DNA from: Bacteroidota bacterium
Lineage (GTDB): Bacteria; Bacteroidota; Bacteroidia; 2-12-FULL-35-15
Length of the DNA stretch: 64,000 nt
Direction: 5' to 3'
Assembly: GCA_025963725.1 (NCBI GenBank)
Contig: JAOQAE010000002.1
Coordinates: forward strand, 445,221 to 509,220
Shown: positions 16,323 through 56,953 of the stretch, piece after piece
Layout: every line of letters begins with the position of its first letter
How positions within the stretch are numbered: the stretch's first letter is position 1
Translations under genes and position numbers: made by a program
Notes under the pieces: generated by a model
The model's database searches: none
What the model saw: only the letters and a program-made list of their open reading frames with translations
Told to the model about the DNA's origin: nothing

Positions 16323-16336
16323 TATAAATACATTCC

Positions 16337-19229: not shown

Positions 19230-19231
19230 CC

Positions 19232-19266
19232 ATAAAAAAACGTCCCCCGGTTCCGGAGGACGTTCT
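19232..19266 (-). terminator. rho-independent terminator downstream of the FKBP gene array
   Basis: Minus-strand RNA would form the hairpin acgtcc-uccggaaccggg-ggacgu followed by UUUUUUU. Confidence 0.6.
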
Positions 19267-28370: not shown

Positions 28371-28389
28371 AACTCACATTCAGCTATTT

Positions 28390-42179: not shown

Positions 42180-44120
42180 TTAGTTAAGTACGTTGCCTTC
42201 TATTTTGACCTGCGGATAAGTATCGCGAAGCAGGTTAAGCCCTTTTTGAGTGATCAGTCCGATTTTCAAATGCCTGAGCTTTTTAAGATCCGAAATAACG
42301 GCAAAGCTCCTGATCCTGTTGTTGCCTTCCATGTTAAGCTCTTCAAGGTTAGGAAGCTTGCGCAGGGAGAAAATATTTACGAGGTCGTTATTGGAAATAT
42401 CGAGGCTTCGCAATTCTTCCATTGCCGGTAAGCGGGTGATGTCCCTGGCCGAGCCATTGATCAACACAAGGCTTCTTAGTTTTGGAAAATAGTGCAGCTC
42501 ATAACAATCGGCGAAAGCAGCACCATTCAGCTCCAGCGAATCGAGGTTGGAAAGATCACGGAGGCTGAGCCCTGAAAAATCCGTTCCTAAGAATTTAAGG
42601 CTCTTTACCTTGTGCTGCTCATTCATTTCAAGGAGCTTCCGGTATGTTTCAGAATCCGAAATATTCATGGAACGCCAGTCTTTGTTATGCATTCTATCCA
42701 TAAAGCCTGACAGCTTCGACGATAATTCTGCCTGGAAATCACGTTCGTCATACAGCGTTCCACCGCTTATATTGCGGTAATTATAATCAGTATCATTCAT
42801 TGTTTCATGCTTTATGGAATCGTCCAAAGACAGCAATTGCGGGAGATTAACATCGGAGAGCGACAGCAGGTAAAATTTATCAAGCGCCTTATCCCTGCTC
42901 AGCGACCTGTTGATATTGAAATTGGTAACCAGCAGATCCCAGTTCACGAAACAGCTGATCACCAGCAGGCCGTAGAACAGCCAGCTGTTTGAACGGAAAA
43001 GGAACCAGTTCGTTTTTGAGCGCATGATCTTCACAAAGGTTGTAACAAGCCCGATGAGCGCCAGCAGCAGCCACACGTACACGCCGATGCGCTTATAGGT
43101 AAGGCTGTATTCATTCACATACAGGCTGTTGCGGAACGCTGTGGAGATGATCATAAAAGCGTTCTGGATGATCCAGGCATACGCAAGCATCTTGATGGTT
43201 TTATTTTTCTCATAAAAATTCACCCTTCCGCGGAAGTAAAACATGATGATGAGAATGGCAATGATGATGGACAGGATCAGCAGGCCTGTGCCCTGGTGCA
43301 CAAAAACAGAATAGCTCATGCCTTTGGGAAGCGTACCATCGCCCCAGAGATAATTCAGGTCGAGCATATTCACCAGCAACAGCAGTCCGTTCAGCAATAT
43401 CAGCAGAATAACGCCGGAGCGCACTTCGTTCTCGATCCCGAGATTGCGCGCAAACCAGGAATCGGTGCGGAGCATGCCCGGGGAAAGGTCATTCGGGATC
43501 GACCTGTCTTTTGCGGCCATTGCCGGAATGGTTTTGTGGTACATGAATCCGTACATGAGGAAGGTTCCTCCAAGCGTAAAGAAGACCCAGCCTGCGGAAA
43601 TAAAATCGAGGTTGATGTTCTTGGTGAATTCGTCGAACAGCGGATTGGAGCCTTTGTATAAAAAGAAAAACACCAGCACAACAGTGAACGGCACAATATA
43701 GATCATGAAGCGTAGAAAAGAAGAATTGCCGGAAGCCGCAGCCACTCTTTTTCCCGCGCGCTCCACGGCATCGAGGATCATGAACACAAAAGATGCGCAG
43801 GTGGAATAAGCGGAGAAGAAAAGTGAAGTGATCACCGAAGTTCCCGGCCCCACGCTGAATGCCGACAGAAGCATTAAGGAGATAATGTTTGCCGTGAGCG
43901 ACAAGCCATTGCCGATGTAGAATACGCAGAATGACGATGCAAGGGCACCTGCCGCTGCAATGAGCCAGGGCTTGTTCCTTTGGAGTGTCCTGTCTTTCAG
44001 CAGCAGCAGGAAAACCAGCAACGCGGAGAAAATAAGGAAATTGATCCCTGTTCCCTGCCTGTAAAATAAAAAGCTGTATGCGAATACCGATGACAGCAAG
44101 ATCCAATCATTCTTTTTCAT
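42180..44120 (-). CDS. polytopic membrane protein with C-terminal leucine-rich-repeat domain
   Basis: About 480-aa multi-TM N-terminal region, then LRR units (LxxLxxLxLxxN, e.g. LRSLDISNNDLVNIFSLRKLPNLEELNMEGN); Met at 44120 overlaps the upstream stop (ATGA). Confidence 0.6.
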   Translation of the reverse strand: MKKNDWILLSSVFAYSFLFYRQGTGINFLIFSALLVFLLLLKDRTLQRNKPWLIAAAGALASSFCVFYIGNGLSLTANIISLMLLSAFSVGPGTSVITSLFFSAYSTCASFVFMILDAVERAGKRVAAASGNSSFLRFMIYIVPFTVVLVFFFLYKGSNPLFDEFTKNINLDFISAGWVFFTLGGTFLMYGFMYHKTIPAMAAKDRSIPNDLSPGMLRTDSWFARNLGIENEVRSGVILLILLNGLLLLVNMLDLNYLWGDGTLPKGMSYSVFVHQGTGLLILSIIIAILIIMFYFRGRVNFYEKNKTIKMLAYAWIIQNAFMIISTAFRNSLYVNEYSLTYKRIGVYVWLLLALIGLVTTFVKIMRSKTNWFLFRSNSWLFYGLLVISCFVNWDLLVTNFNINRSLSRDKALDKFYLLSLSDVNLPQLLSLDDSIKHETMNDTDYNYRNISGGTLYDERDFQAELSSKLSGFMDRMHNKDWRSMNISDSETYRKLLEMNEQHKVKSLKFLGTDFSGLSLRDLSNLDSLELNGAAFADCYELHYFPKLRSLVLINGSARDITRLPAMEELRSLDISNNDLVNIFSLRKLPNLEELNMEGNNRIRSFAVISDLKKLRHLKIGLITQKGLNLLRDTYPQVKIEGNVLN

Positions 44121-44620
44121 AGTGATGATGTATTTAAGTTTAAGAGTTCCAATTGTTTGATATGCCTGTAGCAGAAATACAGCGGGAAGAAGCCAATGAC
44201 GCCGAAAGAGCAATCGATCAGCTGCCAGTAAACGGGAATGTGGCGGATAGGGCCGGCGATCATAGCCAATGGAAAGATCATTACACAGGCGATCATCCCG
44301 AACTGGATGCACCAGATGTTCCTTACGGGATCACGGAGCGGGCCGATGAACACGACCGCGATCACAAGATGCGCAAAGGCCAGCCAGTCGGTGCCATACG
44401 ATAAATACGGATAAGTGTAATTGGTGCTCCGCACGGAAAGATAAATGGTCTGCAGCCAGTTCTGGATCACATGCGGCAATGCCGAAGAGTGAGCGGTAAG
44501 GAATGCCAGCTCCGCTTCGATGGGGAAAGCAGTGATGCCGCTGAGAATGAGAAATACAATGAAGAGGATGATCCAGTTGCGGATCCGCCTTTTAAGCTGT
44601 TGTTCGCTGAGGGTTTTCAT
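44117..44620 (-). CDS. hypothetical membrane protein (167 aa)
   Basis: Four TM segments; translationally coupled to the downstream gene. Confidence 0.5.
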   Translation of the reverse strand: MKTLSEQQLKRRIRNWIILFIVFLILSGITAFPIEAELAFLTAHSSALPHVIQNWLQTIYLSVRSTNYTYPYLSYGTDWLAFAHLVIAVVFIGPLRDPVRNIWCIQFGMIACVMIFPLAMIAGPIRHIPVYWQLIDCSFGVIGFFPLYFCYRHIKQLELLNLNTSSL

Positions 44621-44632
44621 ATACTTTATTTT

Positions 44633-45121
44633 TTATAATGTTTGTTTTGCAATGCAATAGGCTTCCCGGAGCCATGCTGTGTTATGCAGCACCGCGCTGC
44701 TGTAATCCATCTCTGCAAATTCCCCCGATCTTTTTCCTTTCCTGAACGCGTTGTAAAAATCTTTCCAGTGATCGGGCATGAGGAAAATGCAAAGCACTAC
44801 CGTCATGAACACGGGAAATGTATAATGGCGGTTGCCGAGGAACCAGAACTGCATGCAGGCTTCGCCCTGTTCATCCATTTCGTAGCCGAGCAGGATGTGC
44901 TTGCAGTCGTGCCGCACATAGCCAGGAGCCAGCCGGAAGCCCTTCTTCTGAAGATAGTTTGCGAGCTCGTTGCCAAGCGTATGCTCCGGCAGTGCAAGCA
45001 GCTGTTCCATGGTGTATGGAAAGGGCCGGCTGTGCCTTACGCGAAGCATTAAAGGCAATGCTATTTTGTGCGTGAGCAGCTCCAGCAATTGTGATCTTTT
45101 ATTTTTCAGTATGCTGATCAT
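44633..45121 (-). CDS. Coq4-like protein (HDxxH-x11-E zinc-binding motif)
   Basis: HDCKHILLGYEMDEQGE fits the COQ4 family HDxxHx11E signature exactly; about 160 aa. Confidence 0.5.
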   Translation of the reverse strand: MISILKNKRSQLLELLTHKIALPLMLRVRHSRPFPYTMEQLLALPEHTLGNELANYLQKKGFRLAPGYVRHDCKHILLGYEMDEQGEACMQFWFLGNRHYTFPVFMTVVLCIFLMPDHWKDFYNAFRKGKRSGEFAEMDYSSAVLHNTAWLREAYCIAKQTL

Positions 45122-45852
45122 AGGTCGAATGATGAATAAGGCTTTGAAAAAATAAATCCGGAAGATTCCCTGAAAGCTTTGATGATGCTGTCGGCATCCT
45201 GTCCAAGGCTGTATAACAAAGCAACCTGCAGCGCAACTGCGATCGCAAGCAGCGCGGAATAAACCGCGAGCCTTGGCAGCAGGGGCAGCTGGACCACCTG
45301 TAATGGCAAAGGAATAAAGCCGAGCTCTTCGCGGTATGGAAGCAGCTCAGCCGGAACAGCGGCCGTTTGATTGTAGAAATAAAATTCGCGGAGCAGCAGG
45401 AAAAAAGCGACCAGCGGGCAAAGCAGCTCGAAGCCTTGAAAAGGAAAAACGATCCCAAGCACGAAGTAGTTCAGGAAATGAATGCTGCAGGCAAAGCAGA
45501 GGATGATGCCCTGCAGCATGCCTACGGAGAAAAGAATGCGCAAAAAAGGATTGCGTGTTCCGGAAGTTAAGCGGGCGCACCAGAAGGAAGCAGATGAAAC
45601 CATCACGAGCAGGATAATGCTGATCACATGGCGCTTTGAGAATGGCATGTCAAACCCGTACGCATCGAAGCGGCAAAACCCGATCGCAGGCGCTATGAGC
45701 GTAAAAACAAAATCGGCGGTGAGCATGGAAGCCTGGCCGTACCCGCTTAACTGATTATCGTTCCTCTTCATTGTACGGATGGCTGTGACGATCACATACA
45801 GGATGTACAAAATGTAAGGGATGCCGAGAAGGAGCAAAAAAAAGAAGATCAT
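45118..45852 (-). CDS. hypothetical polytopic membrane protein (244 aa), first gene of the operon
   Basis: Six or seven TM; 4-nt overlap with the Coq4-like gene. Confidence 0.5.
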   Translation of the reverse strand: MIFFFLLLLGIPYILYILYVIVTAIRTMKRNDNQLSGYGQASMLTADFVFTLIAPAIGFCRFDAYGFDMPFSKRHVISIILLVMVSSASFWCARLTSGTRNPFLRILFSVGMLQGIILCFACSIHFLNYFVLGIVFPFQGFELLCPLVAFFLLLREFYFYNQTAAVPAELLPYREELGFIPLPLQVVQLPLLPRLAVYSALLAIAVALQVALLYSLGQDADSIIKAFRESSGFIFSKPYSSFDL

Positions 45853-45921
45853 ATTTTTATTTTTTTAATTAAAAGTACTTTGTGTTTCAAAGTTAAAGCA
45901 CAAAAAAAAGGTGCATCATCA

Positions 45922-46221
45922 TTAATCCCTTTGCTTCAGCAGCTTCTCTAATGCATCCAGGTGCTCGTTGAATGCCTTCTTCCCTGCCTTTGTTACCGAG
46001 TATGTTGTGTTCGGCTTTTTGCCGATGAACTGTTTCTGCACTTCAATGTATTCCAGCTTCTCCAGAGCGGAAATATGCGAAGCGAGATTACCATCGGTAA
46101 TGTCGAGCATTTCCTTCATGGAGCTGAATTCCACCTTGTCGTTCACCATGAGGATGCTCATGATGCCCAACCGGATGCGGTTTTCAAATGCCTTGTTTAA
46201 ATGTTGAATATAATTTTTCAA
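45922..46221 (-). CDS. winged-helix transcriptional regulator (HTH_34/ArsR-like)
   Basis: 99 aa; pattern ...LGIMSILMVNDKVEFSSMKEMLDITDGNLASHISALEKLEYIE... typical of small wHTH regulators. Confidence 0.55.
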   Translation of the reverse strand: MKNYIQHLNKAFENRIRLGIMSILMVNDKVEFSSMKEMLDITDGNLASHISALEKLEYIEVQKQFIGKKPNTTYSVTKAGKKAFNEHLDALEKLLKQRD

Positions 46222-46356
46222 GCTGCTAATTACGAATCTATACGAATTTACGAATTGTACTAATTATCATTCTCACTGGATGTCATCCTGAGCGAAGCGA
46301 ATGGATCTTTCCAAACAACCTCCCCGAACTCCTAACGTCTCCCTCCTATCTAACAG

Positions 46357-47001
46357 CTACCCTCTCTCATATTTAAAATACATCACTGCGCCATATATAA
46401 TGTGCAGAATACCGAATCCGACTGCCCAGAAATACAGTCCGTAGCCAATGTACAGCGAAGCCGTTAAGCCAAGAATGATCTCGCAGATCCCAAGATAGCG
46501 AATATCATTGAATGTATATTTACTTGCGTTGATCAGCGACAAACCATAAAAGATGAGCGTCGCCGGAGCGACGAGCCCGATATCGCCGTGATACAGCATA
46601 ATAAGGCAGAACAATCCGCCGGTGCCAAGCGGGATCGCGAGGTTGATCAGCAGCCGCTGCCCGGTGCTGTCCCAGATCCTGAGCCCTTTTTTTCTCGAAT
46701 TGCGCATTGTTAAAAGAGTGCCTACCAGCAGGGAAGCGATCAGCACGCCAGCCGCAACAGAGAACAGGTAAATGATCAGCTCGTTCGCTACTTCCACCCT
46801 GCCGTGGATATCCATCTGAAGCATCGAGCGGTAGTTTTCGGTATAAGAGCCGATCTTCACATACGCGAGGTACGCTCCTATCAGTGCAAACACACCGGCA
46901 AAAACACCGGAAAGGCCGCTCAGGGAAATAAAACGGGAAGAGCGCTCCATCATGGAGCGGATGTCGGACAGTGCCTGTAAATGTTCTTTTTGATCTGCCA
47001 T
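46357..47001 (-). CDS. hypothetical membrane protein
   Basis: Five TM; start taken at MADQKEH (the ORF extends to 47064). Confidence 0.45.
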   Translation of the reverse strand: MADQKEHLQALSDIRSMMERSSRFISLSGLSGVFAGVFALIGAYLAYVKIGSYTENYRSMLQMDIHGRVEVANELIIYLFSVAAGVLIASLLVGTLLTMRNSRKKGLRIWDSTGQRLLINLAIPLGTGGLFCLIMLYHGDIGLVAPATLIFYGLSLINASKYTFNDIRYLGICEIILGLTASLYIGYGLYFWAVGFGILHIIYGAVMYFKYERG

Positions 47002-47207
47002 AGTTAAGGAGCTATTAAAAGTACTTTGTAACGCAAAGTAATGGTAAATTATTGTAAGCGCCAAAAGAAAATGAAATTATTTTTATGACTGTCGGAAAAA
47101 CTGCTCTTATTTAAGGATCGCAATGATGTTCAAATTTATCCTTCTGAAACTCAGGGAGGCGCTGTGGGCGATTATTAAATCCGGCAGAAAAACCTTATAC
47201 TTGTGGT

Positions 47208-47993
47208 ATGGTAAACCTGGCCATTTATACCTTTATAACAGTCCACCTGATCGATGTGGTGGACGTGCTATTGGTGGCGCTGCTCATTTACCAGCTTTAC
47301 TACCTGATCAAAGGAACTGCAGCCATCAATATCTTTATCGGCATCCTCCTCTTCTACCTTTTATGGATCCTTGTAAAAGCCCTGAACATGCAGCTTTTCG
47401 GCAGCATCCTCGGGAAGTTCATCGATGTGGGCTTCATTGCCCTGCTCATCGTTTTCCAGCAGGAGCTGCGGCGCTTCCTGCTTTTCATCGGCACTTCCGA
47501 TATTTTCACCAAAGGGAAGATCTTCGATTTCAAATGGAACATGAACCCCACGCATAAAATGGACATCAACGCCATTGTGAAGGCCTGCAAGAACATGAGC
47601 GAAAGCAAAACCGGCGCGATCATTATCATTACCAGGAACAACGAGCTGAAATTCTACGCAAATACGGGAGATGCCATTGAAGCAAAAGTATCGGTGCGGA
47701 TGATCGAAAGCATTTTTTATAAGAACTCCCCGCTGCACGACGGTGCATTGATCATCTCCGGTAACGAGATCGTGGCTGCCCGCTGTGTGCTGCCTGTTAC
47801 CGAGAACAATGAGTTTCCGGCACACCTGGGCATGCGGCACCGGGCTGCGGTAGGGATCACTGAAAATTCGGATGCGATCGCCGTGGTGGTTTCCGAACAA
47901 ACGGGGGAAATTTCCTTTTCCAAAGAAGGAGAGCTGAAGCATGGCGCTACGCCGGAACGCCTGCGCGAAATGCTTGAAAAAGAGTTTGCGTAG
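47208..47993 (+). CDS. cdaA: diadenylate cyclase CdaA (c-di-AMP synthase)
   Basis: N-terminal TM helices; DAC domain motifs (DGALIISGNEIVAARCVLP, RHRAAVGITE, SEQTGEIS). Confidence 0.85.
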   Translation: MVNLAIYTFITVHLIDVVDVLLVALLIYQLYYLIKGTAAINIFIGILLFYLLWILVKALNMQLFGSILGKFIDVGFIALLIVFQQELRRFLLFIGTSDIFTKGKIFDFKWNMNPTHKMDINAIVKACKNMSESKTGAIIIITRNNELKFYANTGDAIEAKVSVRMIESIFYKNSPLHDGALIISGNEIVAARCVLPVTENNEFPAHLGMRHRAAVGITENSDAIAVVVSEQTGEISFSKEGELKHGATPERLREMLEKEFA

Positions 47994-48023
47994 TACGGAT
48001 AACAATATTGTAATCTGCGCGTT

Positions 48024-48064
48024 GTCATTTCGAGTTCGACCGAAGGGAGAGTATCGAGAAAGTG
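48024..48064. repeat. truncated copy of the 12-bp-TIR miniature element (GTCATTTCGAGT...), between convergent genes
   Basis: gtcatttcgagttcgaccgaagggagagtatcgagaaagtg is the reverse complement of 50910-50950. Confidence 0.7.
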
Positions 48065-48076
48065 GGTGAGCAAGTC

Positions 48077-48637
48077 CTACTTCTTCCTTTTGTTCTTCTT
48101 CTCAAACTCCCTGATCAGCTCCTCATCCGACTTGCCAAGGTTCCGGATCGCAGCCTTTGCATCGGCAGCATACGGAAGCTTCGGATATTTTTCGATCACC
48201 TGCTCATAAACGAGCTTTGCTTTCGCATCATCATTCAGGAAATTGTCGAGGAGATAACCCTGCAGGTACAGGCTTTCCGGAACGAGCTTAAAGGCCGGAT
48301 ATTTTGAGGTGATCATTTCGTAATACATCAGCGCCTGGGTATACTGTTGATTGGCCGTTGAAATTTCTGCGGCTTTGAAAATGAAATCAGGGCTCAGGGA
48401 ATCATCGGGGAATGCCTTTACAAAATCATCATAAGCTTTCACGGCTATGGTCGCTGTATTGGGATCGAGCGTTTGCGACTGGTGCATTTCCTTTTCGTAA
48501 CGGCTGATCTGCTTCAGGTACAGCTCGCGGGGCGTTTCTTTGGGCCTGACAACCGCAGCCGGCTTTTCTTCATTATTTCCGCACGACATGGCGCCACACA
48601 GCAGCGCAGCAAAAAAAACACCTTTTACAGTTTTCAT
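48077..48637 (-). CDS. TPR-like lipoprotein
   Basis: Lipoprotein signal ...LLCGAMSCGN; TPR-like helical repeats. Confidence 0.5.
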   Translation of the reverse strand: MKTVKGVFFAALLCGAMSCGNNEEKPAAVVRPKETPRELYLKQISRYEKEMHQSQTLDPNTATIAVKAYDDFVKAFPDDSLSPDFIFKAAEISTANQQYTQALMYYEMITSKYPAFKLVPESLYLQGYLLDNFLNDDAKAKLVYEQVIEKYPKLPYAADAKAAIRNLGKSDEELIREFEKKNKRKK

Positions 48638-48679
48638 AATGTGATCTTGATTTGAACCGGGGATGATTTTAACCGAAAA

Positions 48680-49276
48680 TTATTTCTTGTTCGGGAAGCG
48701 CATTTTGTAATCCACCTTGATGTTGCCTTTGGAAATATCCGTAAGCTTGCCCTTCAGCAGCCTTCTCCGCAACGGGTTGATATGGTCCACAAAAAGCTTT
48801 CCTTCAATATGGTCGTACTCATGCTGGATCACGCGGGCAACAATGCCTTCGTAGGTCTCATCATGAAATTTAAAATCCTCATCGTAATACTGGATGTGCA
48901 CTTTCGGCTTGCGGTACACATCCTCACGGATCTTCGGGATGCTGAGGCAACCTTCGTTGAATGCCCATTCCTCGCCTTCCTCTTCTATGATCTGCGCGTT
49001 GATGAAAGTCTTTTTAAAGTTCTCCATCATGGCCAGCTCATCTTTCGTGTATTCGCTTTCCTCATCATCCGGCACATCGGAAAAAGGCTTGGCATCCACG
49101 ATGAACAGGCGGATCGCTTTTCCGACCTGCGGTGCTGCGAGGCCTACGCCGGAAGAATTGTACATGGTTTCGTACATATCGTCGATCAGCTTGCTGAGGC
49201 CGGGATACTCCTTATCGATCTCCGCTCCTGTTTTTCTCAACACAGGATCGCCGTATGCTACAATTGGTAATATCAT
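48680..49276 (-). CDS. def: peptide deformylase
   Basis: GVGLAAPQVG, EGCLSIP and HEYDHIEG motifs; start at MILPIVAYGDPVLRK. Confidence 0.9.
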   Translation of the reverse strand: MILPIVAYGDPVLRKTGAEIDKEYPGLSKLIDDMYETMYNSSGVGLAAPQVGKAIRLFIVDAKPFSDVPDDEESEYTKDELAMMENFKKTFINAQIIEEEGEEWAFNEGCLSIPKIREDVYRKPKVHIQYYDEDFKFHDETYEGIVARVIQHEYDHIEGKLFVDHINPLRRRLLKGKLTDISKGNIKVDYKMRFPNKK

Positions 49277-49292
49277 AAAATAATAATGTGAA

Positions 49293-49712
49293 TTAAAAAT
49301 TATTCTTTTTCTTTTCCATAAAGCTTTGCAGGATGATCGTCGCGCTGATCTCATCCACAAGCTCCTTGTTCTGCCGGTCCTTTTTCTTCAGCCCGCTGTC
49401 GATCATGGTTTGAAAAGCCATCTTCGATGTAAAGCGCTCGTCCATCCGCTCCACTTTGATCCCCGGGAAGCTGCGCTTGAGGTGCAGCACAAAGGGCTCG
49501 ATGAACCGCGCCGAATCGGAAGGCTCGTTGTTCATGCGTTTCGGCTCACCCACCACAATGCATTCTACCTCTTCCTTCGCGATGTAATCCTTCAGAAAAA
49601 CGATCAGGTCCTTTGAATGAACGGTGGCCAGCCCCCTGGCGATGATCTGCAAAGCATCCGTAACGGCAATGCCAACACGTTTGCTTCCATAATCAATTGC
49701 CATGATCCTTGC
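49293..49712 (-). CDS. ruvX: Holliday junction resolvase-like RuvX/YqgF
   Basis: MARIMAIDYGSKRVGIAVTD N-terminus; about 139 aa. Confidence 0.85.
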   Translation of the reverse strand, partial: ARIMAIDYGSKRVGIAVTDALQIIARGLATVHSKDLIVFLKDYIAKEEVECIVVGEPKRMNNEPSDSARFIEPFVLHLKRSFPGIKVERMDERFTSKMAFQTMIDSGLKKKDRQNKELVDEISATIILQSFMEKKKNNF

Positions 49713-49860
49713 CATGCTGCAAAAGTAGTAAAAAAGCCCGCAAATTCCTTGTCTGTCAACAGAAAAAACCTGCTTCTGCAACCTAAAATTTGAATATCTT
49801 TGCTCACTCAGTTTAAGGCGGGCAATTGTCGAAAATGTTGAATTCTATTTTCAGCAATAA

Positions 49861-49973
49861 GTCACTTCGAGTGCGTAACGCTTGAAGCCCTTCGACTCCG
49901 CTCAGGATAAACTTCTCGAGAAGTAGAGCAGTTCTCGATACTTTCGCCAGAAAAGGCGAAAACTCGAACTGAC
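49861..49973. repeat. full-length miniature element with 12-bp terminal inverted repeats GTCACTTCGAGT / ACTCGAACTGAC (113 bp)
   Basis: The termini are reverse complements; contains the 12-bp perfect palindrome cttctcgagaag and the shared core ttctcgatact. Confidence 0.7.
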
Positions 49974-50021
49974 TTAGAGGTTCAACATTTATAATGAACG
50001 TATATTAAAATTTAAATCTAT

Positions 50022-50828
50022 ATGCAGGAAATCATTGAAGCAGCGTGGGAGAACCGCGAGCTGCTGAAGGACGAAAAAACACTTTCCACCATCCGTGAGG
50101 TGATCGAACAGCTCGACAAAGGCGCACTGCGCGTGGCTGAGCCGAAGGGTAACGACTGGCAGGTAAACGAATGGGTAAAAAAGGCAGTGATCCTATATTT
50201 CCCGATCCAGAAAATGGAAACCATTGAAGCGGGCATTTTCGAGTACCACGATAAAATGAAACTGAAAACGGGCTATGCTGCGCTTGGCGTTCGCGTAGTG
50301 CCGAATGCCGTTGCACGCTATGGCGCATTCCTCGCAAAAGGCGTGATTATGATGCCGAGCTATGTGAACATCGGCGCGTATGTAGACAGCGGTACCATGG
50401 TGGATACCTGGGCAACGGTTGGCTCCTGCGCACAGATCGGGAAAGACGTGCATTTAAGTGGCGGCGTTGGCATTGGCGGCGTGCTCGAGCCTGTGCAGGC
50501 TGCACCGGTGATCATCGAAGACGGATGCTTTATCGGCTCCCGCTGCATTGTGGTGGAAGGCGTAAGGGTTCAGAAGGAAGCGGTGCTCGGCGCAAACGTG
50601 GTGCTCACCAAATCTACAAAGATCATTGATGTTACCGGCAATGAGCCGAAGGAATACAAAGGCATTGTGCCGCCGAGATCCGTAGTGATCCCCGGTTCTT
50701 ACACGAAGAAGTTCCCTGCCGGCGAGTTCCAGGTGCCCTGCGCGCTGATCATCGGGCAGCGGAAGGAAAGCACCGACCTTAAAACTTCGTTGAACAATGC
50801 ATTGAGGGAGTATGATGTGGCGGTATAA
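50022..50828 (+). CDS. dapD: 2,3,4,5-tetrahydropyridine-2,6-dicarboxylate N-succinyltransferase DapD
   Basis: Left-handed beta-helix hexapeptide repeats; N-terminus MQEIIEAAWENRELLKD typical of Bacteroidota DapD. Confidence 0.8.
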   Translation: MQEIIEAAWENRELLKDEKTLSTIREVIEQLDKGALRVAEPKGNDWQVNEWVKKAVILYFPIQKMETIEAGIFEYHDKMKLKTGYAALGVRVVPNAVARYGAFLAKGVIMMPSYVNIGAYVDSGTMVDTWATVGSCAQIGKDVHLSGGVGIGGVLEPVQAAPVIIEDGCFIGSRCIVVEGVRVQKEAVLGANVVLTKSTKIIDVTGNEPKEYKGIVPPRSVVIPGSYTKKFPAGEFQVPCALIIGQRKESTDLKTSLNNALREYDVAV

Positions 50829-50850
50829 TTCGTAGTTGGGCTGCATAGCG

Positions 50851-50950
50851 TCAGTTCGTCCCGATACTATCGGGAAGCAAGGCACGAGCATATCGAGAAC
50901 AAGCGCACGCACTTTCTCGATACTCTCCCTTCGGTCGAACTCGAAATGAC
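50851..50950. repeat. miniature TIR element copy (GTCAGTTCG...ACTCGAAATGAC)
   Basis: Shares core cactttctcgatactctcccttcggtcgaactcgaaatgac with 53130-53170. Confidence 0.7.
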
Positions 50951-51024
50951 GGCACACTGATCCAATTCGCAGATTCGTAAAAATTCGTAATTCGTAATTA
51001 GTATAAATTCGTAATTAGTAGAGT

Positions 51025-51056
51025 GAGATTGCTTTGTCGTACCTCCTCGCAATGAC
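51025..51056. repeat. 32-bp element GAGATTGCTTTGTCGTACCTCCTCGCAATGAC (copy 3) embedded in ATTCGTAA arrays
   Basis: One mismatch relative to the other copies. Confidence 0.8.
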
Positions 51057-51133
51057 GTTCAATTCGTAGATTGGTAAAGATTCGTAATTCGCAAATTAGT
51101 ATAGATTCGTAATTAGTAGATCGTAAATTAGTA

Positions 51134-52258
51134 ATGAATATAGGATTTGACGCAAAAAGAGCTTATTTGAATACCAGCGGGCTTGGCAATTATGCGAGGA
51201 CGCTGATCAAATCATTGAATGAATATTACCCTGAGAATACCTACTCGCTTTTCACCACAAGGCTTACCGACAATGATTTTCAGAAGCAGGCCGCAGCCTT
51301 CAGCAATATACATGTGTATGAGCCGCAAAGCTTTATCGATAAAAAGCTGCGCTCCCGCTGGCGCTCATACGGGATCACCAACGTTTTAAAGGAACAGTCC
51401 GTTAATGTGTATCACGGACTGAGCAATGAGCTGCCTTTTAATATCGATGAATTCAAAGGGAAAAAGATCGTTACTATTCATGATCTCATCTTCGTCCGTT
51501 ACCCGAAATTATATCCTTACCTCGACCGGAAGATCTACAATAAGAAATTCCGTCATGCCTGCGATGTGGCTGATACCATCATCGCCATCAGCGAGGAGAC
51601 CAAGCGCGACATTGAAAAATATTATTTCGTCCCTGAGAATAAAATAAAAGTGATCTACCAGAGCTGTGATGAAGCTTTTTACAAAGACTATTCCGCCGGG
51701 GAATCAAAAAGCATTGCGGAATCATACCAGCTGCCGGCCAATTTTTTATTGTACGTGGGCACCATCGAGGAGCGCAAAAATTTATTGTCGATTGTAAAGG
51801 CCCTGAAGCAGGTGAAGGACATTCCGCTCGTAGTGATCGGGAAAAAGAAAAGCTATTTTGAAAAGGTAAAGGACTTCATTGAAAAAAACCAGCTGACGGA
51901 GCGGGTCATTTTTCTGGAGAATGTAGACAACAACCATTTGCCGGTGATCTACCGCATGGCATCGGTCTTTATTTTCCCTTCTCTTTTTGAAGGCTTCGGC
52001 ATTCCGATCATCGAAGCGCTGGTAAGCAGAACGCCGGTGATCACATCGAAGGGCGGCTGCTTCCCCGAAGCCGGCGGCCCCGGTTCACTGTACATCGATC
52101 CGCTGAATGAAAATGAGCTGGCTGAAAAGATCAACCTGCTGCTGGGCTCGGAACAGCTCCGGAAGGAGATCGCGGAAAAAGGGATTGAATATGCAAAACG
52201 CTTTCACCCGAAAGTGGTGACTTCGCAAATGATGGAGGTTTATAAAGGGAGCTTGTAG
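51134..52258 (+). CDS. glycosyltransferase family 4 (GT1-group)
   Basis: GT4 C-terminal E-x7-E region (FIFPSLFEGFGIPIIEALVSRTPVI). Confidence 0.8.
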   Translation: MNIGFDAKRAYLNTSGLGNYARTLIKSLNEYYPENTYSLFTTRLTDNDFQKQAAAFSNIHVYEPQSFIDKKLRSRWRSYGITNVLKEQSVNVYHGLSNELPFNIDEFKGKKIVTIHDLIFVRYPKLYPYLDRKIYNKKFRHACDVADTIIAISEETKRDIEKYYFVPENKIKVIYQSCDEAFYKDYSAGESKSIAESYQLPANFLLYVGTIEERKNLLSIVKALKQVKDIPLVVIGKKKSYFEKVKDFIEKNQLTERVIFLENVDNNHLPVIYRMASVFIFPSLFEGFGIPIIEALVSRTPVITSKGGCFPEAGGPGSLYIDPLNENELAEKINLLLGSEQLRKEIAEKGIEYAKRFHPKVVTSQMMEVYKGSL

Positions 52259-52488
52259 TTGGGAGGTAGGAGTTGGGAGTTGGGAGGTAGGAGTTGGGAG
52301 TTGGGAGTTGGCAGACGGTTAACGTGATGATTATTACAACTATTCGTAATTCGTACATTCGTAAAGATTCGTAATTAGCAGGGATTGCTTCGTCGTACCT
52401 CCTCGCAATGACGTTCAATTCGTAATTCGTAGATTCGTAAAAAATTCGTATTTCGTAAATTAGTATAGATTCGTAATTCGTAGCTACT
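52259..52488. repeat. composite intergenic repeat block: (GGAGTTGGGAG)n G-tract, GACGGTTAACGTGATGATTATT, ATTCGTAA arrays and the 32-bp element (52381-52412)
   Basis: Starts at the first base after the GT4 stop codon; same organisation as 38093-38400. Confidence 0.8.
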
Positions 52489-53052
52489 ATGGAGGAAGAA
52501 ATAAAAAATGCGCTTGAAGTGCTTCGCAAAGGAGGCACCATCCTCTACCCTACCGATACGGTTTGGGGCATTGGCTGTGATGCGCGGAACAAGGATGCAG
52601 TAGCGAAAGTATTTAAGATCAAGCAGCGGGCCGAATACAAAAGCATGGTCACGCTCGTTTGCGATAACACCATGCTGAACCGCCATGTGAAGGAAGTCCC
52701 GGAAGTGGCCTGGGACCTGATAGAAGCTGCCGACAGGCCCCTCACAATTATTTATCCCGGTGCGCGCATGCTTGCCGAGAACGTGATCGCAGCTGACGGA
52801 AGTGTTGGTATACGGATGGTACAGGATGAGTTTTGCAAAAACCTGATCCATAAGTTCGGGAAGCCCATCGTTTCAACTTCCGCAAATATCAGCGGCGAGG
52901 AAGCGCCTTCCTCCTTCAACGAGATCAAGATCGACATTTTGAATAACGTGGATTACATTGTAAATTTACGCAGGAATGATAACAGCAGCATTCAGCCATC
53001 TACGATCATCAAAGTAGCGATGAACGGGGAATTCAAGATCATCAGGAAGTAG
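52489..53052 (+). CDS. TsaC/YrdC-family L-threonylcarbamoyladenylate synthase paralog (187 aa)
   Basis: ILYPTDTVWGIGCD motif; the second YrdC-fold gene in the window. Confidence 0.7.
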   Translation: MEEEIKNALEVLRKGGTILYPTDTVWGIGCDARNKDAVAKVFKIKQRAEYKSMVTLVCDNTMLNRHVKEVPEVAWDLIEAADRPLTIIYPGARMLAENVIAADGSVGIRMVQDEFCKNLIHKFGKPIVSTSANISGEEAPSSFNEIKIDILNNVDYIVNLRRNDNSSIQPSTIIKVAMNGEFKIIRK

Positions 53053-53078
53053 TTGGGGAGTTAGGAGTTGGGAGTTTT

Positions 53079-53170
53079 CATAGCGTCAGTTCGAGTAGCG
53101 AGGCACGAGCGTATCGAGAACAAGCTCACACACTTTCTCGATACTCTCCCTTCGGTCGAACTCGAAATGA
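53079..53170. repeat. miniature TIR element copy (GTCAGTTCGAGT...ACTCGAAATGAC), preceded by a G-rich tract at 53053-53076
   Basis: Perfect 12-bp TIR; core identical to 50910-50950. Confidence 0.75.
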
Positions 53171-53286
53171 CCAGCACACCGATTAGCATTTCGCCCAGGA
53201 TGAGAGTGCAGTTCGTAATTCGTATATTCGTAACAATTCGTATTTCGAAGATAGATTAGTAATTCATATAAATTCGTATCCGTACC

Positions 53287-53739
53287 ATGGAGAGCCTATT
53301 CAACCTGAACGACAGCCAGAAATTAATTGACCGGATCAATTCCCTCAGCGCCTCCTCACAGGCACAATGGGGAAAAATGAACGTATCCCAAATGCTTGCG
53401 CATTGCCAGGCTCCTTTGGCAGTGGCCTTCGGAGAGCATAAGCTGAAGCGCGGACTGATCTCCATCCTGTTTGGCAAAATGATCAAGAACAAGCTGATGA
53501 AGGATGAAAAGCCCTTCGACCGCAACCTGCCTACCGACAAATCATTTATCGTGGTGGACCAGCGCGAGCTTGATAAAGAAAGAGATATCCTCATCGGACT
53601 TATTAAGCGCTTCCGCGAAACAGGCGAGAGCGGGCTGACGAAAGATCCACACCCTTTTTTCGGTAAGCTTACCGGCCATGAATGGGATGTGCTGCAGTGG
53701 AAACACCTCGATCATCATTTAAGGCAGTTTGGGGCATAA
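53287..53739 (+). CDS. DUF1569/DinB-superfamily protein
   Basis: 150 aa four-helix-bundle-like protein; C-terminal WDVLQWKHLDHHLRQFG pattern. Confidence 0.5.
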   Translation: MESLFNLNDSQKLIDRINSLSASSQAQWGKMNVSQMLAHCQAPLAVAFGEHKLKRGLISILFGKMIKNKLMKDEKPFDRNLPTDKSFIVVDQRELDKERDILIGLIKRFRETGESGLTKDPHPFFGKLTGHEWDVLQWKHLDHHLRQFGA

Positions 53740-55262: not shown

Positions 55263-55871
55263 ATGGTTTACCGTTTTAAAGTAACTTTTGAGGACAACGA
55301 GGACGTATATCGTGAGATCGAAATAAAATCCACCCAGAATTTTGAAGATTTTCACAATGTGATCATGCAATCCATCGGGTTTGATAACATGCACGACGCT
55401 TCATTTTTCATCAGCGATGATTACTGGAGAAAAGGCGAAGAGATCAGGCTGAAGCCGGCAGAAGGCAAAAGGCAGATGAACAAGTGCAAGATGGCGCTGC
55501 TGATCGATGATCCGCACCAGAAATTTGTTTATACCTACGATCCCAAAGCCGTCTGGACATTCCTGATCGAGCTGCTGAAGATCGTTCCGGATGATGCAAA
55601 AGCGACGTACCCGAAATGCGCAAAATCAGTAGGTGAAGCGCCGAAGCAGCACAAGGCAAGCGCTGTTGTGCCGCCTGTTGGCGAGGAGGAAGAATTTGAC
55701 GAAGAGCCGCACAGCGATGATGAGGCCTATACGCATGCCCACAGCGAAGATGAAACGGCCTTACTTGAAGGTGAAGAAGGTGAAGTGGAAGAAACAGAGG
55801 AAGAAGAAGTGCATGATGATGAGGCTGCGGATTTTGAAGCGGGCGCTGAACACGAAGGCGATGATTTTTAG
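55263..55871 (+). CDS. PRiA4b ORF3-like (PF07929-like) protein with poly-acidic C-terminal tail
   Basis: N-terminal YRFKVTFED...YREIEI...FEDFHNVIMQSIGFDNMHDASFF pattern; C-terminal 70 aa is about 50% D/E. Confidence 0.45.
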   Translation: MVYRFKVTFEDNEDVYREIEIKSTQNFEDFHNVIMQSIGFDNMHDASFFISDDYWRKGEEIRLKPAEGKRQMNKCKMALLIDDPHQKFVYTYDPKAVWTFLIELLKIVPDDAKATYPKCAKSVGEAPKQHKASAVVPPVGEEEEFDEEPHSDDEAYTHAHSEDETALLEGEEGEVEETEEEEVHDDEAADFEAGAEHEGDDF

Positions 55872-55970
55872 TTGGTAGTCTGGAGTTCGTAGTTTGTAGA
55901 CGGTTAACATGATAATTATTTGCGTGTAACGAACGTCATCTGCATTTTTTAATTTGACAGTTACTCCCTG

Positions 55971-56885
55971 GTGAAAACAAACAAGTATCTTATTGTAGTT
56001 GCAGGCCCTACCGCCATAGGTAAAACAGCCCTTGGCGTGCGGCTTGCAAAAACATTCGGCACAGTGGTGCTCTCCGCCGATTCCCGGCAATTCTTCAGGG
56101 AAATGAGCATCGGCACGGCCAAGCCTTCTGCAGAAGAAATGCAGGGCATCCCCCATTATTTTATCGATTCGCATTCGGTGGCTGAGCCCTACAACGTAGG
56201 AAAGTATGAAGCCGAAGCGATCGCGCTGCTCGAAAAATTATTTTCAGGGCACGATGTGGTGGTCATGGCCGGCGGCTCCGGGCTGTACATCGATGCCGTT
56301 TGCAAAGGCTTTGATGAGCTTCCGGAAGCTGATGACTTGATCCGGAAGCAGATCGATGATCTCCTCGAACATGAAGGCATTGGGGCGCTGCAGGAAAAGC
56401 TGAAGCAGCTCGATCCCGTTTACTACGCGCAGGTCGACCTGAAGAACCCGCAGCGGCTGGGCAGGGCGCTGGAAGTATGCATCAGCAGCGGAATGCCGTA
56501 CTCCAGCCTGCGTGAAGGAAAAATAAAGACAAGGGATTTCAATTGCATAAAGATCGGCCTCGACACCAGCCGTGAGCTGCTATACGAACGCATCAACAAC
56601 CGCGTTGATAAAATGATGCACGAAGGCTTGCTGGAAGAAGTAAGATCGCTGGTCCCGTTCAAAGCTGCCAACGCCCTGCAAACCGTTGGATACAAAGAGC
56701 TGTTCGATCACCTTGAAGGAAAGAGCAGCCTGCAGGCAGCCATCGAGCTGATAAAGCAGAACACGCGAAGGTTTGCGAAGCGGCAGCTTACCTGGTTCCG
56801 CCGCGACGCAGGAATAAAATGGTTTGAGCCGGATGAAACGGAAAAAATAATTGAATATATAAAAGCAACGATCGACCACCCCTAA
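55971..56885 (+). CDS. miaA: tRNA dimethylallyltransferase MiaA
   Basis: P-loop VVAGPTAIGKT; conserved SADSRQFFREMSIGTAKP. Confidence 0.9.
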   Translation: MKTNKYLIVVAGPTAIGKTALGVRLAKTFGTVVLSADSRQFFREMSIGTAKPSAEEMQGIPHYFIDSHSVAEPYNVGKYEAEAIALLEKLFSGHDVVVMAGGSGLYIDAVCKGFDELPEADDLIRKQIDDLLEHEGIGALQEKLKQLDPVYYAQVDLKNPQRLGRALEVCISSGMPYSSLREGKIKTRDFNCIKIGLDTSRELLYERINNRVDKMMHEGLLEEVRSLVPFKAANALQTVGYKELFDHLEGKSSLQAAIELIKQNTRRFAKRQLTWFRRDAGIKWFEPDETEKIIEYIKATIDHP

Positions 56886-56945
56886 CCCCTCCTGGAAGGA
56901 GGGGAACCGGATCGTTCCTCCCCTTCCAGGGGAGGCAAGGAGGGG
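56886..56945. repeat. two GC-rich hairpins (CCCCTCCTGGAAGGAGGGG; CCTCCCCTTCCAGGGGAGG) of the CCCCTC...GAGGGGTTAGGGG family, right after the miaA stop
   Basis: cccctaacccctcc is the reverse complement of ggaggggttagggg seen at 38205-38218. Confidence 0.65.
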
Positions 56946-56953
56946 TACATACT

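What the first reader, a model, noticed from the sequence alone, without database searches (positions are those of the whole stretch)
49861..49973. Family of miniature elements with 12-bp terminal inverted repeats GTCAGTTCGAGT / ACTCGAAMTGAC
A full 113-bp copy sits at 49861-49973, with copies at 50851-50950 and 53085-53170 and a truncated copy at 48024-48064. All share the core TTCTCGATACT...AACTCGAAMTGAC, with a variable internal stem-loop such as ttcgcc-agaaaa-ggcgaa. All lie in intergenic space next to housekeeping genes. The pattern fits a non-autonomous MITE or a structured regulatory RNA family.
Basis: seen in the sequence. Interest (0 to 1): 0.5.

Follow-up and report, generated by a model that had tools for sequence, protein, structure and literature searches.

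The report
Hairpin repeats tied to GIY-YIG nuclease
The four small palindromic repeats are gene-less copies of an element found across the phylum Bacteroidota whose full form carries a 96-residue GIY-YIG nuclease gene, so they look like an undescribed branch of the recently discovered Ssn nuclease/hairpin-repeat systems, not an RNA gene or a classical MITE.

Summary
The 12-mer ACTCGAANTGAC occurs 6 times in the window (0.87 expected), only in four intergenic elements between 48,024 and 53,171.

The basic unit is a head YGTCAnTTCGAGT, a variable hairpin, then GTATCGAGAA. Full elements are two such units in inverted orientation around a short spacer.

The two boxes are nearly invariant across Flavobacteriales, Sphingobacteriales, Cytophagales and unclassified Bacteroidota. 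The hairpin sequence varies freely but stays Watson-Crick paired (88%; G:T 1.3%), which points to a DNA-level palindrome, not an RNA.

There is no Rfam hit, no viral copy, no target-site duplication and no neighbouring transposase.

In seven loci from different genera a ~96-aa GIY-YIG nuclease gene sits in the spacer, between the two units, often beside arrays of gene-less copies. This protein is homologous to GIY-YIG genes flanked by the Neisseria NTS repeat (hhalign 99.1%), the signature of the Ssn single-strand nucleases (Chenal 2025). It forms its own clade, and its repeat does not fit the published Ssn-related motif.

Best reading: the window copies are non-autonomous cognate repeats of an Ssn-like nuclease. 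Single-strand cleavage and mobility are inferred, not shown.

The parts
49861..49973 (+). Copy A, a full composite element. Layout: GTCACTTCGAGT (49861-49872); hairpin-1 region (49873-49912); inner box TTCTCGAGAA (49913-49922, a degenerate GTATCGAGAA); 9-nt spacer; TTCTCGATAC (49932-49941); hairpin tttcgccagaaaaggcgaaa (49942-49961); ACTCGAACTGAC (49962-49973).
   Evidence: ssDNA fold -19.8 kcal/mol, z = -2.3. Its right half-unit alone folds at -8.8 kcal/mol, z = -3.0. Same subfamily as L027 5145-5234, L047 and L101.
49884..49912 (-). A second, different hairpin repeat nested inside hairpin 1 of copy A. On the minus strand it reads GTTTATCCTGAGCGGAGTCGAAGGGCTTC.
   Evidence: The same motif sits at the same relative place in Muricauda L017. 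Relatives of this motif (GTCACACTGAGCGCAGTCGAAGTG ... CCTTCGACTCCGCTCAGGCTGAC) flank a GIY-YIG paralogue (63% identical to the L009 protein) in L246. A similar pair flanks a Sphingomonas GIY-YIG gene.
50850..50950 (+). Copy B, a full element of the B/C/D subfamily. The left outer box is interrupted: GTCAGTTCG, then a 17-nt palindrome (50859-50875), then AGCAAGG... Inner boxes at 50890-50899 and 50914-50923. Right box ACTCGAAATGAC at 50939-50950.
   Evidence: 93% identical to C over 81 nt (family D16). ssDNA fold of 50851-50950 is -19.8 kcal/mol, z = -4.0.
53085..53171 (+). Copy C, an intact 87-nt full element: GTCAGTTCGAGT-agcgaggcacgagc-GTATCGAGAA-caagctcacacact-TTCTCGATAC-tctcccttcggtcga-ACTCGAAATGAC.
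   Evidence: ssDNA fold -21.1 (+ strand) and -19.3 (- strand) kcal/mol, z = -4.8 and -3.6. Position 5 of the outer stem is a G.A mismatch.
48024..48076 (-). Copy D, a remnant: one half-unit (48024-48060) plus part of the spacer. It abuts the stop codon of the TPR-lipoprotein gene.
   Evidence: The orthologous spacer in MAG RYN_273 (L027 6178-6264) holds a full 87-nt copy. The window lacks the far half and about 27 nt of flank. The retained 52 nt differ at 1 position, while the flanking genes are 82-85% identical.

Best explanation
The four elements are gene-less copies of the repeat that goes with a small single-domain GIY-YIG nuclease related to the Ssn single-strand DNases.

Anatomy. The unit is Y-GTCA-n-TTCGAGT, then a hairpin of any sequence, then GTATCGAGAA. 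Most copies are inverted pairs of one G-headed unit (GTCAG) and one unit headed GTCA(A/C/T). As a single strand such a pair folds into a four-way junction: two invariant stems (12 bp with a mismatch at position 5, and 10 bp) and two variable hairpins. In the full form the nuclease gene lies in the loop between the two units.

Proposed mechanism, by analogy with Neisseria SsnA and its NTS repeat (inferred, not shown). When DNA is single-stranded (replication, uptake, repair), the unit folds. The nuclease reads the YGTCA head and the conserved boxes, which the hairpin brings together. It then nicks that strand near the head. Nicking at the outward-facing heads on opposite strands would drive copying or loss of the element, and possibly local recombination.

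The window itself encodes no such nuclease, so its copies would depend on a gene elsewhere in the genome. Copy D is decaying.
For: Shown:
1. The boxes are nearly invariant in 60 full elements, plus solo half-units at 90 strand-specific matches, taken from at least 109 genome stretches of many Bacteroidota genera.
2. The hairpin between the boxes has 173 distinct sequences. Stem positions 2-6 are 88% Watson-Crick with all four pair types, against 43-57% in partner shuffles. G:T is 1.3% and A:C 2.9%.
3. Position 5 of the outer stem is non-Watson-Crick in 54 of 60 full elements. In 52 of 60 the pair has one G-head and one A/C/T-head; about 30 would be expected from the head frequencies.
4. The base before GTCA is C or T in 90% of 261 heads. 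This is the CGTC/TGTC tag of CGTC-type REPs and of the NTS (PMC3733652, PMC11893778).
5. A 95-97-aa GIY-YIG ORF (PF01541, E 1e-18 to 1e-20) lies between GTATCGAGAA and TTCTCGATAC in:
   - L009 (MAG RYN_273, a relative of the window organism)
   - L024 and L241
   - L031 (Moheibacter)
   - L111-L113 (Flagellimonas olearia)
   - L114 and L115 (Tenacibaculum finnmarkense)
   - L245
. In L009 and L245 a degenerate outer box, or a whole further element, lies between the stop codon and the closing half-unit.
6. Among 142 ORFs within 400 nt of an element, GIY-YIG is the only nuclease or mobile-element family that recurs.
7. These proteins are 57-69% identical across genera. Across 62 homologues Y7, G19, R27, H31 and E65 are invariant; from general knowledge of the fold these are its catalytic set.
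8. They are homologous to GIY-YIG genes flanked by exact NTS repeats in inverted orientation: 37-48% identity, hhalign probability 99.1%, E 5e-19.
9. The gene sits in different neighbourhoods in different genera: osmC/recJ, moeA/moaC, DUF1653/serS, and a short-chain dehydrogenase gene/AraC-family regulator gene.
10. Identical variable hairpins occur at unlinked loci within a genome (window B, C, D; RYN_273 L005, L009, L027, L046, L058).
11. Copy number changes between related genomes. Two T. finnmarkense assemblies differ by two tandem units. RYN_273 has an element where the window has none.
12. No target-site duplication, as expected for single-strand mechanisms.
Against: - No biochemical data exist for the Bacteroidota protein.
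- Its clade is about as far from UPF0213/YhbQ-type proteins (PDB 1ZG2, E 2e-12) as from the NTS-flanked proteins. Membership of the Ssn family proper (cd10448) is therefore not established.
- The repeat does not match the published Ssn-related motif.
- In the window's B/C/D subfamily a single half-unit does not fold stably with standard DNA parameters (z about +0.7). Its hairpins would need tandem G.A pairs.
- No clean filled-versus-empty site was found, so transposition is not demonstrated. The Tenacibaculum difference could be unequal recombination.
- The window has no GIY-YIG gene, and the rest of its genome was not available.
- Co-occurrence of gene and repeat across genomes could not be tested.
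Confidence: 0.7

Rival explanations
1. Homing-site reading. The repeat family exists for some other reason. The GIY-YIG gene is a free-standing homing endonuclease gene that inserts into the loop of the element, and is not the agent that spreads or maintains the repeat.
For: The ORF is always between the two half-units. GIY-YIG enzymes include classical homing endonucleases (general knowledge). The proteins give weak hits to the group I intron endonuclease model, far below its cut-off.
Against: - Gene-less copies far outnumber gene-bearing ones in the loci held, which is not expected for an efficient homing gene.
- Box sequences and protein are conserved together across the phylum.
- A close paralogue is flanked by a different repeat family, as if each nuclease has its own repeat.
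- The same gene-between-repeats layout in Neisseria belongs to a nuclease that cuts the repeat itself (PMC11893778).
Confidence: 0.1
2. RNA-level element. The repeats act in transcripts as a terminator, an mRNA-stabilising 3' structure or a small regulatory RNA.
For: - They are intergenic and often just after stop codons.
- They fold strongly.
- There is an orientation bias relative to flanking co-directional genes: 35:14 for solo units and 20:7 for pairs.
- REP elements are known to affect mRNA stability (general knowledge).
Against: - No Rfam family matches at E = 10.
- Stems show no G:U enrichment on either strand.
- The conserved parts are the helices, with no covariation, while the loops vary.
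- Copies occur in divergent promoter regions (copy A) and in both orientations.
- No T-run follows them, and the terminator scan finds nothing at them.
- A secondary effect on transcripts remains possible.
Confidence: 0.08
3. REP/REPIN moved by a RAYT (Y1 HUH transposase), as in Pseudomonas and E. coli.
For: Inverted pairs of hairpin units with a spacer resemble REPINs. There is no target-site duplication. Bacteroidetes do encode RAYT subclasses 2.4 and 2.6 (PMC6006769).
Against: - The head is YGTCA, not GTAG.
- The REPs listed next to Bacteroidetes subclass 2.6 genes are different simple hairpins, and none of the box strings occurs in that paper's tables.
- No Y1 transposase appears among the recurring families next to elements.
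- The gene inside the element is GIY-YIG.
Confidence: 0.04
4. Classical MITE derived from an insertion sequence with a DDE transposase that binds the 12-bp terminal inverted repeats.
For: It has terminal inverted repeats, small size, intergenic location and several copies.
Against: - No target-site duplication: the observed distribution equals the shuffled one.
- No transposase is seen nearby.
- Half-units occur alone and nested in other palindromes.
- The ends are conserved across classes of the phylum, whereas a survey found prokaryotic MITEs to be mostly genus-specific (PMC11602168).
- No copy in 2.9 million viral contigs.
Confidence: 0.04

Closest known systems
Ssn nucleases and their Ssn-related motifs (SRM). 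Type example: Neisseria meningitidis SsnA and the NTS repeat CGTCATTCCCGCGMAVGCGGGAATCYRG (Chenal et al., Nat Commun 2025, PMC11893778).
   Same: - A single-domain GIY-YIG protein of about 95 aa.
- The gene is bracketed by inverted copies of a hairpin repeat whose unpaired head is (C/T)GTCA.
- The same repeat is scattered through intergenic DNA and surrounds gene blocks.
- The proteins are detectably homologous (hhalign 99.1%).
- There is no transposase and no target duplication.
   Different: - The protein forms a separate clade: about 40% identity to NTS-flanked proteins, and an N-terminal half more like UPF0213.
- The repeat is not a simple 7-9-bp hairpin. It is two invariant boxes split by a hairpin of free sequence and length (13-45 nt). 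It fails the published SRM pattern.
- Pairs form a four-way junction.
- The host phylum is not named in the main text of that paper.
- Activity is untested.
CGTC-tagged REPs (Di Nocera et al. 2013, PMC3733652), which include the Neisseria dRS3 repeat and Rickettsia RPE-4 and RPE-6.
   Same: - A CGTC/TGTC head that is not part of the stem.
- Units mostly occur as inverted dimers, often heterodimers.
- They are found nested inside other palindromes.
- That paper found no dedicated transposase.
- Bacteroidetes (Gramella forsetii) are listed among the hosts.
   Different: The described families have 8-9-bp stems, 4-5-nt loops and a 3-nt tail. Here the stem is composite with a variable inner hairpin, and a second conserved box follows it.
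REP/REPIN-RAYT systems (Bertels and Rainey 2011, PMC3116915; Nunvar 2010, PMC2817692).
   Same: A single-copy nuclease gene flanked by its own hairpin repeats. Inverted doublets are the common unit. The repeats are intergenic, lack target duplications, and persist over long evolutionary times.
   Different: The enzyme is a Y1 HUH transposase and the head is GTAG. Neither is found here.
IS200/IS605 insertion sequences.
   Same: The ends are subterminal hairpins read as single-stranded DNA, without terminal duplications. The strand bias seen here would fit targeting of the lagging-strand template (inference).
   Different: IS200/IS605 ends are not inverted repeats, and the enzyme is TnpA (Y1). 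The hairpin sequence itself is conserved there, whereas here only the flanking boxes are.
Integron attC sites.
   Same: Only short boxes are conserved. The central part varies in sequence and length but stays paired. A conserved non-paired position marks the strand when the site folds as single-stranded DNA (general knowledge).
   Different: attC sites are recombined by a tyrosine integrase, lie in one orientation at cassette ends, and are not dispersed among housekeeping genes. No integrase is seen here.

Membership tests
Ssn / SRM system | Small (~94 aa) single-domain GIY-YIG protein | tested here: met
   ORFs of 95-97 aa carry only PF01541 (E 1e-18 to 1e-20). The catalytic-type residues Y7, G19, R27, H31 and E65 are invariant in 62 homologues.
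Ssn / SRM system | Protein belongs to the Ssn clade (CDD cd10448; homologue of N. meningitidis SsnA) | tested here: inconclusive
   Homologous to four NTS-flanked GIY-YIG proteins from metagenomes: 37-48% identity, hhalign 99.1%, E 5e-19. It forms its own clade, about equally distant from UPF0213 proteins. CDD assignment and the SsnA sequence itself were not available.
Ssn / SRM system | Gene flanked on both sides by inverted copies of its hairpin repeat | tested here: met
   Seven loci from different genera show unit-ORF-unit with the heads facing outward. In L009 and L245 a degenerate outer box or a further element intervenes on the 3' side. This is the layout seen in the NTS-flanked controls.
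Ssn / SRM system | Repeat fits the published degenerate motif HGTCWYN(0-2)YYVSBRHN(0-5)WNVSBRGN(0-2)RNCYNB | tested here: not met
   The pattern matches none of the elements. It gives 1 unrelated hit in the window (19144-19173) and 1 hit in 867 kb of the other loci held at that point.
Ssn / SRM system | Nuclease binds and cuts only single-stranded DNA, on one strand, near the repeat | not testable with these tools
   Needs purified protein. Indirect pointers only: DNA-level hairpin conservation, a conserved mismatch and unlike heads, and an orientation bias.
CGTC-tagged REP | Unpaired CGTC (or TGTC) tag at one end | tested here: met
   The base before GTCA is C in 43% and T in 47% of 261 heads.
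CGTC-tagged REP | 8-9-bp stem, 4-5-nt loop, short tail | tested here: not met
   The segment between the boxes is 13-45 nt with its own stem-loop, and a second 10-nt conserved box follows it.
REP/REPIN-RAYT | GT[AG]G head and association with a Y1 (IS200-like) transposase | tested here: not met
   The head is YGTCA. No Y1 family is among the recurring neighbours (which shows only the 25 commonest families). The published Bacteroidetes RAYT-associated REPs differ.
Classical MITE | Terminal inverted repeats plus target-site duplication; parent IS with a transposase | tested here: not met
   Terminal inverted repeats are present. Direct repeats at the flanks are no commoner than in shuffles. The enclosed gene is a nuclease, not a transposase.
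Structured non-coding RNA family | Match to a curated RNA family, or covariation with G:U tolerance on one strand | tested here: not met
   Zero Rfam matches at gathering score, and only two chance-level eukaryotic hits at E up to 10. G:T is 1.3% and A:C 2.9% of stem cells.
Intrinsic terminator | GC-rich hairpin followed by a T-run, oriented with the upstream gene | tested here: not met
   No terminator-like site overlaps any copy. Copies occur in both orientations and in divergent spacers.

The most novel reading that the evidence does not exclude
The gene-bearing form (unit, 96-aa GIY-YIG gene, inverted unit) is a self-mobilising element of a kind not yet recognised. It would be an insertion-sequence-like parasite whose only protein is a GIY-YIG single-strand nuclease. 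That protein would read two short boxes brought together by a hairpin of arbitrary sequence. The element would seed phylum-wide families of gene-less copies that insert into each other's hairpin loops. In effect a third enzyme class for hairpin-end transposition or homing would join the Y1 HUH enzymes.
Probability: 0.3. Interest if true: 0.8.

Novelty: new variant of a known kind. Interest (0 to 1): 0.6.

Why it matters
Ssn nucleases are the first described site-specific enzymes that cut only single-stranded DNA, and they were described in 2025 mainly from Neisseria. This finding matters in four ways.

- It indicates a large sister group across Bacteroidota with a different recognition logic: split boxes around a free hairpin. 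That predicts new cleavage specificities for single-stranded-DNA tools.
- It would give the CGTC-type repeats of this phylum a partner enzyme. A 2013 survey found none.
- It explains a class of intergenic repeats that clutter Bacteroidota genomes and can produce spurious small ORFs.
- It offers a tractable case for asking whether GIY-YIG nucleases can drive repeat spread.

For annotation, these elements should be masked as repeats and not called as RNA genes or terminators.

Tried and rejected
- Rfam at gathering score and at E = 10: nothing relevant.
- Literature search for the box strings: only chance primer matches.
- RAYT link: the REPs listed for Bacteroidetes RAYT subclass 2.6 are unrelated hairpins, and no box string occurs in the supplementary tables.
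- Viral contigs: no copy.
- Target-site duplication: none beyond chance.
- Empty-site search: the window-versus-RYN_273 difference at 47091-47133 is real, but the spacer is too diverged to place the boundaries. The Tenacibaculum strain difference is a change in tandem copy number.
- Enclosing stems around solo half-units: present in about a third of them, in particular subfamilies, so not a defining feature.
- Plasmid tblastn to obtain bona fide Ssn proteins. The Cupriavidus and Legionella hits, which by their sequence look like UPF0213/YhbQ-type proteins (my own reading), have no SRM match in their flanks. The Sphingomonas and Methylobacterium homologues are flanked by yet other hairpin repeats.
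- The published SRM pattern does not detect this family.
- NCBIfam has no specific model for the protein.
- The Cardinium MITE and RepRanger papers describe unrelated elements.
- A covariance model was not built. Anchored pair counts on the conserved boxes served instead.

Full report
**1. Checking the observation**

The region 47,900-53,400 was read directly. The 12-mer ACTCGAANTGAC, with up to one mismatch, occurs six times in the 64-kb window. Shuffles give 0.87, and none of 100 reaches six. All six matches lie in the four reported elements. A looser scan finds no further copy.

Corrected spans:
- A = 49861-49973
- B = 50850-50950
- C = 53085-53171
- D = 48024-48060, plus a spacer remnant to 48076 on the minus strand

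All four lie between housekeeping genes. Reading along the window the order is: cdaA, D, TPR-lipoprotein gene, def, ruvX, A, dapD, B, GT4 glycosyltransferase gene, tsaC, C, DUF1569 gene. Four consecutive stretches of intergenic DNA within 5.2 kb therefore each hold one copy.

**2. Anatomy**

They come from:
- Flavobacteriaceae: Flagellimonas/Muricauda, Flavobacterium, Winogradskyella, Polaribacter, Lutibacter, Maribacter, Croceitalea, Arenibacter and others
- Fluviicola, Moheibacter and Vicingus
- MAGs labelled Sphingobacteriaceae, Cytophagales, Bacteroidia and Bacteroidota
- two outliers: a Glaciecola chromosome and a Victivallales MAG

From these loci I extracted 60 full elements and 90 strand-specific matches to solo half-units. 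The unit, read from its head, is GTCAnTTCGAGT, then a variable hairpin, then GTATCGAGAA. A full element is two units in inverted orientation around a spacer of 8-50 nt. A single strand can therefore fold into a four-way junction with four arms:
- an outer 12-bp stem
- a variable hairpin
- an inner 10-bp stem closed by the spacer
- a second variable hairpin

**3. DNA palindrome or RNA structure?**

The two conserved stems show essentially no variation and so no covariation. The hairpins behave in the opposite way. There are 173 distinct sequences. Stem positions 2-6 are 84-90% Watson-Crick, against 43-57% when partners are shuffled. All four pair types are used.

Of 859 stem cells, 88.2% are Watson-Crick, 1.3% G:T and 2.9% A:C. 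An RNA-only constraint should tolerate G:U on the transcribed strand. Its absence on either strand points to a palindrome kept at the DNA level.

Rfam gives nothing at gathering score and only two chance-level eukaryotic hits at E up to 10. No terminator-like site overlaps a copy.

**4. Asymmetry**

Position 5 of the outer stem is the only variable position. It is non-Watson-Crick in 54 of 60 full elements. In 52 of 60 one head is GTCAG and the other is GTCA(A/C/T). About 30 would be expected from the head frequencies. The base before GTCA is C or T in 90% of 261 heads.

Between co-directional genes, the strand carrying TTCTCGATAC...ACTCGAACTGAC is antisense to the genes in 35 of 49 solo units and 20 of 27 pairs. 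The gene calls are rough and some loci are clustered, so I treat this as a moderate signal.

There is no target-site duplication and no copy in 2.9 million viral contigs.

**5. Evolutionary behaviour**

Window positions 42,969-49,786 are syntenic with contig L027 of MAG RYN_273 at 77-85% identity.
- At the D locus RYN_273 has a full 87-nt element. The window keeps one half, 51 of 52 nt identical, and has lost the other half.
- RYN_273 also has an element (L027 5145-5234) where the window has only about 40 nt of spacer. The spacer is too diverged to place the boundaries.
- Within a genome, unlinked copies share the same variable hairpins (window B, C and D; five RYN_273 loci). This argues for spread by copying and against independent origin.

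Copy A is composite. A second kind of hairpin repeat (minus strand GTTTATCCTGAGCGGAGTCGAAGGGCTTC, 49884-49912) is nested in its first hairpin, as in Muricauda L017. Copy B has a 17-nt palindrome inside its left box.

**6. The associated gene**

The loci densest in boxes each contained an ORF of about 97 aa. Three of these ORFs are GIY-YIG domains (PF01541, E 1e-18 to 1e-20).
- In L031 (Moheibacter) and L024 the ORF lies exactly between GTATCGAGAA and TTCTCGATAC of one element.
- In L009 (RYN_273) it lies between a half-unit and a full element whose first box overlaps the stop codon.
- Gene-less copies stand in tandem around all three.

The protein has more than 2,000 homologues, the closest named ones from Bacteroidota. 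Looking up where some of them are encoded gave the same layout in Flagellimonas olearia, Tenacibaculum finnmarkense and two metagenome contigs. A 63%-identical paralogue (L246) is instead flanked by the second repeat family, the one nested in copy A.

An unbiased Pfam survey covered 142 ORFs within 400 nt of an element. It found only housekeeping families plus GIY-YIG (3 members). No transposase appears among the 25 commonest families shown.

The gene's neighbours differ between genera: osmC/recJ, moeA/moaC, DUF1653/serS, and a short-chain dehydrogenase gene/AraC-family regulator gene. This fits a mobile unit. Two T. finnmarkense assemblies differ by two tandem gene-less units next to the gene.

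**7. Comparison with what is known**

A literature search led to Chenal et al. 2025 (PMC11893778).
- N. meningitidis SsnA is a 94-aa single-domain GIY-YIG protein (CDD cd10448).
- It binds and cuts only single-stranded DNA, on one strand, next to the hairpin repeat NTS (CGTCATTCCCGCGMAVGCGGGAATCYRG).
- The gene is flanked by NTS copies, and homologues in many phyla are flanked by related motifs.
- Its main text does not name Bacteroidota.

Di Nocera et al. 2013 (PMC3733652) had classed these repeats as CGTC-tagged REPs. Those REPs are mostly inverted dimers, often heterodimers, and have no known transposase.

To test the relationship I scanned metagenomes for the exact NTS. Four contigs show NTS(+), a GIY-YIG gene, then NTS(-). 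The element-borne proteins are 37-48% identical to these. Profile-profile comparison gives 99.1% probability, E 5e-19.

They nevertheless form their own clade, about as far from UPF0213 proteins (PDB 1ZG2, E 2e-12) as from the NTS-flanked proteins. The published degenerate SRM pattern matches none of the elements. RAYT-associated REPs of Bacteroidetes are different sequences.

**8. Mechanism**

Shown:
- A phylum-wide repeat with invariant boxes, a free but paired hairpin, a YGTCA head and a conserved mismatch.
- A conserved small GIY-YIG gene, probably active, nested in the repeat in many genera.
- Homology of that gene to NTS-flanked GIY-YIG genes.

Inferred by analogy:
- The unit folds when DNA is single-stranded.
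- The nuclease recognises the head and the boxes that the hairpin brings together, and nicks near the head.
- Nicks at the two outward-facing heads on opposite strands lead to copying, loss or local recombination.
- The window copies depend on a gene elsewhere in the genome.

The orientation bias would fit exposure on the lagging-strand template. This is my inference and is untested.

Rivals, in order of weight:
- The gene homes into a pre-existing repeat.
- The repeat acts at the RNA level.
- Mobilisation by a RAYT.
- A classical MITE with a DDE transposase.

**9. Verdict**

The system is best filed as a new variant of the Ssn/hairpin-repeat kind. The protein clade is distinct and the repeat architecture differs. 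I found no description of this architecture in the literature I could search.

Interest is moderate to high. The family is large, conserved and testable, but the principle was published in 2025.

Noticed in passing
window 19186-19233, 38299-38346, 51013-51060, 52369-52416: Four copies of another headed hairpin repeat. On the reverse strand it reads CGTCATTGCGAGGAGGTACGACGAAGCAATC. It shares the CGTCAT head with the NTS and the CGTC-type REPs, and sits in the same intergenic spacers as copies B and C.
   Followed up: partly
window 19144-19173: TGTCATCCCGTGCTCCGACACGGGATCTGT is the only sequence in the window that fits the published Ssn-related motif pattern. It is a perfect 8-bp hairpin with a TGTCAT head.
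   Followed up: no
window about 13970-13996 (minus strand): TGTCATGCTGAGCGGAGCCGAAGCATC is a member of the GTCAnnCTGAGCGnAGTCGAAGnn family. That family is nested in copy A. It also flanks a GIY-YIG paralogue in L246 and, in a related form, a Sphingomonas GIY-YIG gene in L116.
   Followed up: partly
window 50954-51141, 52338-52485, 53207-53270, 38254-38393, 46201-46272: AT-rich runs of (A/T)ATTCGTA-like units lie upstream of several genes, next to the elements. Their origin and role are unknown.
   Followed up: no
window 52247-52314, 53054-53078, 38081-38127, 55870-55920: Short GGGAGTT / GGTAGTT-type tandem repeats directly follow stop codons (GT4 glycosyltransferase gene, tsaC and others). Some are followed by a shared GACGGTTAAC(G/A)TGAT sequence.
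   Followed up: no
window 16060-16110, 16289-16332, 38180-38220, 56875-56946: A further palindromic repeat family built on CCCCTCTCGAGAGGGG / CCCCTCCTGGAAGGAGGGG cores.
   Followed up: no
window 29008-31001: Three tandem 663-nt repeats (65-75% identical) inside the very large ORF 28389-34158, probably repeated protein domains.
   Followed up: no
L057 1-800 (Flavobacteriales genome assembly): A GIY-YIG gene closer to the NTS-flanked type (46-50% identical) is bracketed by direct copies of a two-hairpin module: GATGCTGAAACAAGTTCAGCATGAC ... GTCATTCCGAACTGGTTTCGGAATC. This suggests that several nuclease/repeat pairs coexist in Bacteroidota.
   Followed up: partly
L025 (Glaciecola amylolytica chromosome CP034120.1) and L063 (Victivallales MAG): Exact half-units occur outside Bacteroidota. 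In L025 the half-unit is enclosed by a 10-bp stem. This could be horizontal transfer, mislabelling or contamination.
   Followed up: no
Flavobacterium and Polaribacter loci L011, L049, L070, L074, L078, L087, L094, L095, L098, L107, L110: Solo half-units sit at the apex of another long, imperfect palindrome (...CAATCTTTTTCTC[unit]GAGAAAAAGGATT...). The stem next to the unit covaries between copies, as if the unit had inserted into the loop of a different repeat.
   Followed up: partly
window 53107-53119 versus the Spirosoma linguale REP in PMC6006769 Table S1: Hairpin 1 of copies B and C shares the 13-mer GGCACGAGCGTAT with the reverse complement of a RAYT-associated REP (GCTGGCGCGAGCATACGCTCGTGCC). 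This may be coincidence.
   Followed up: no
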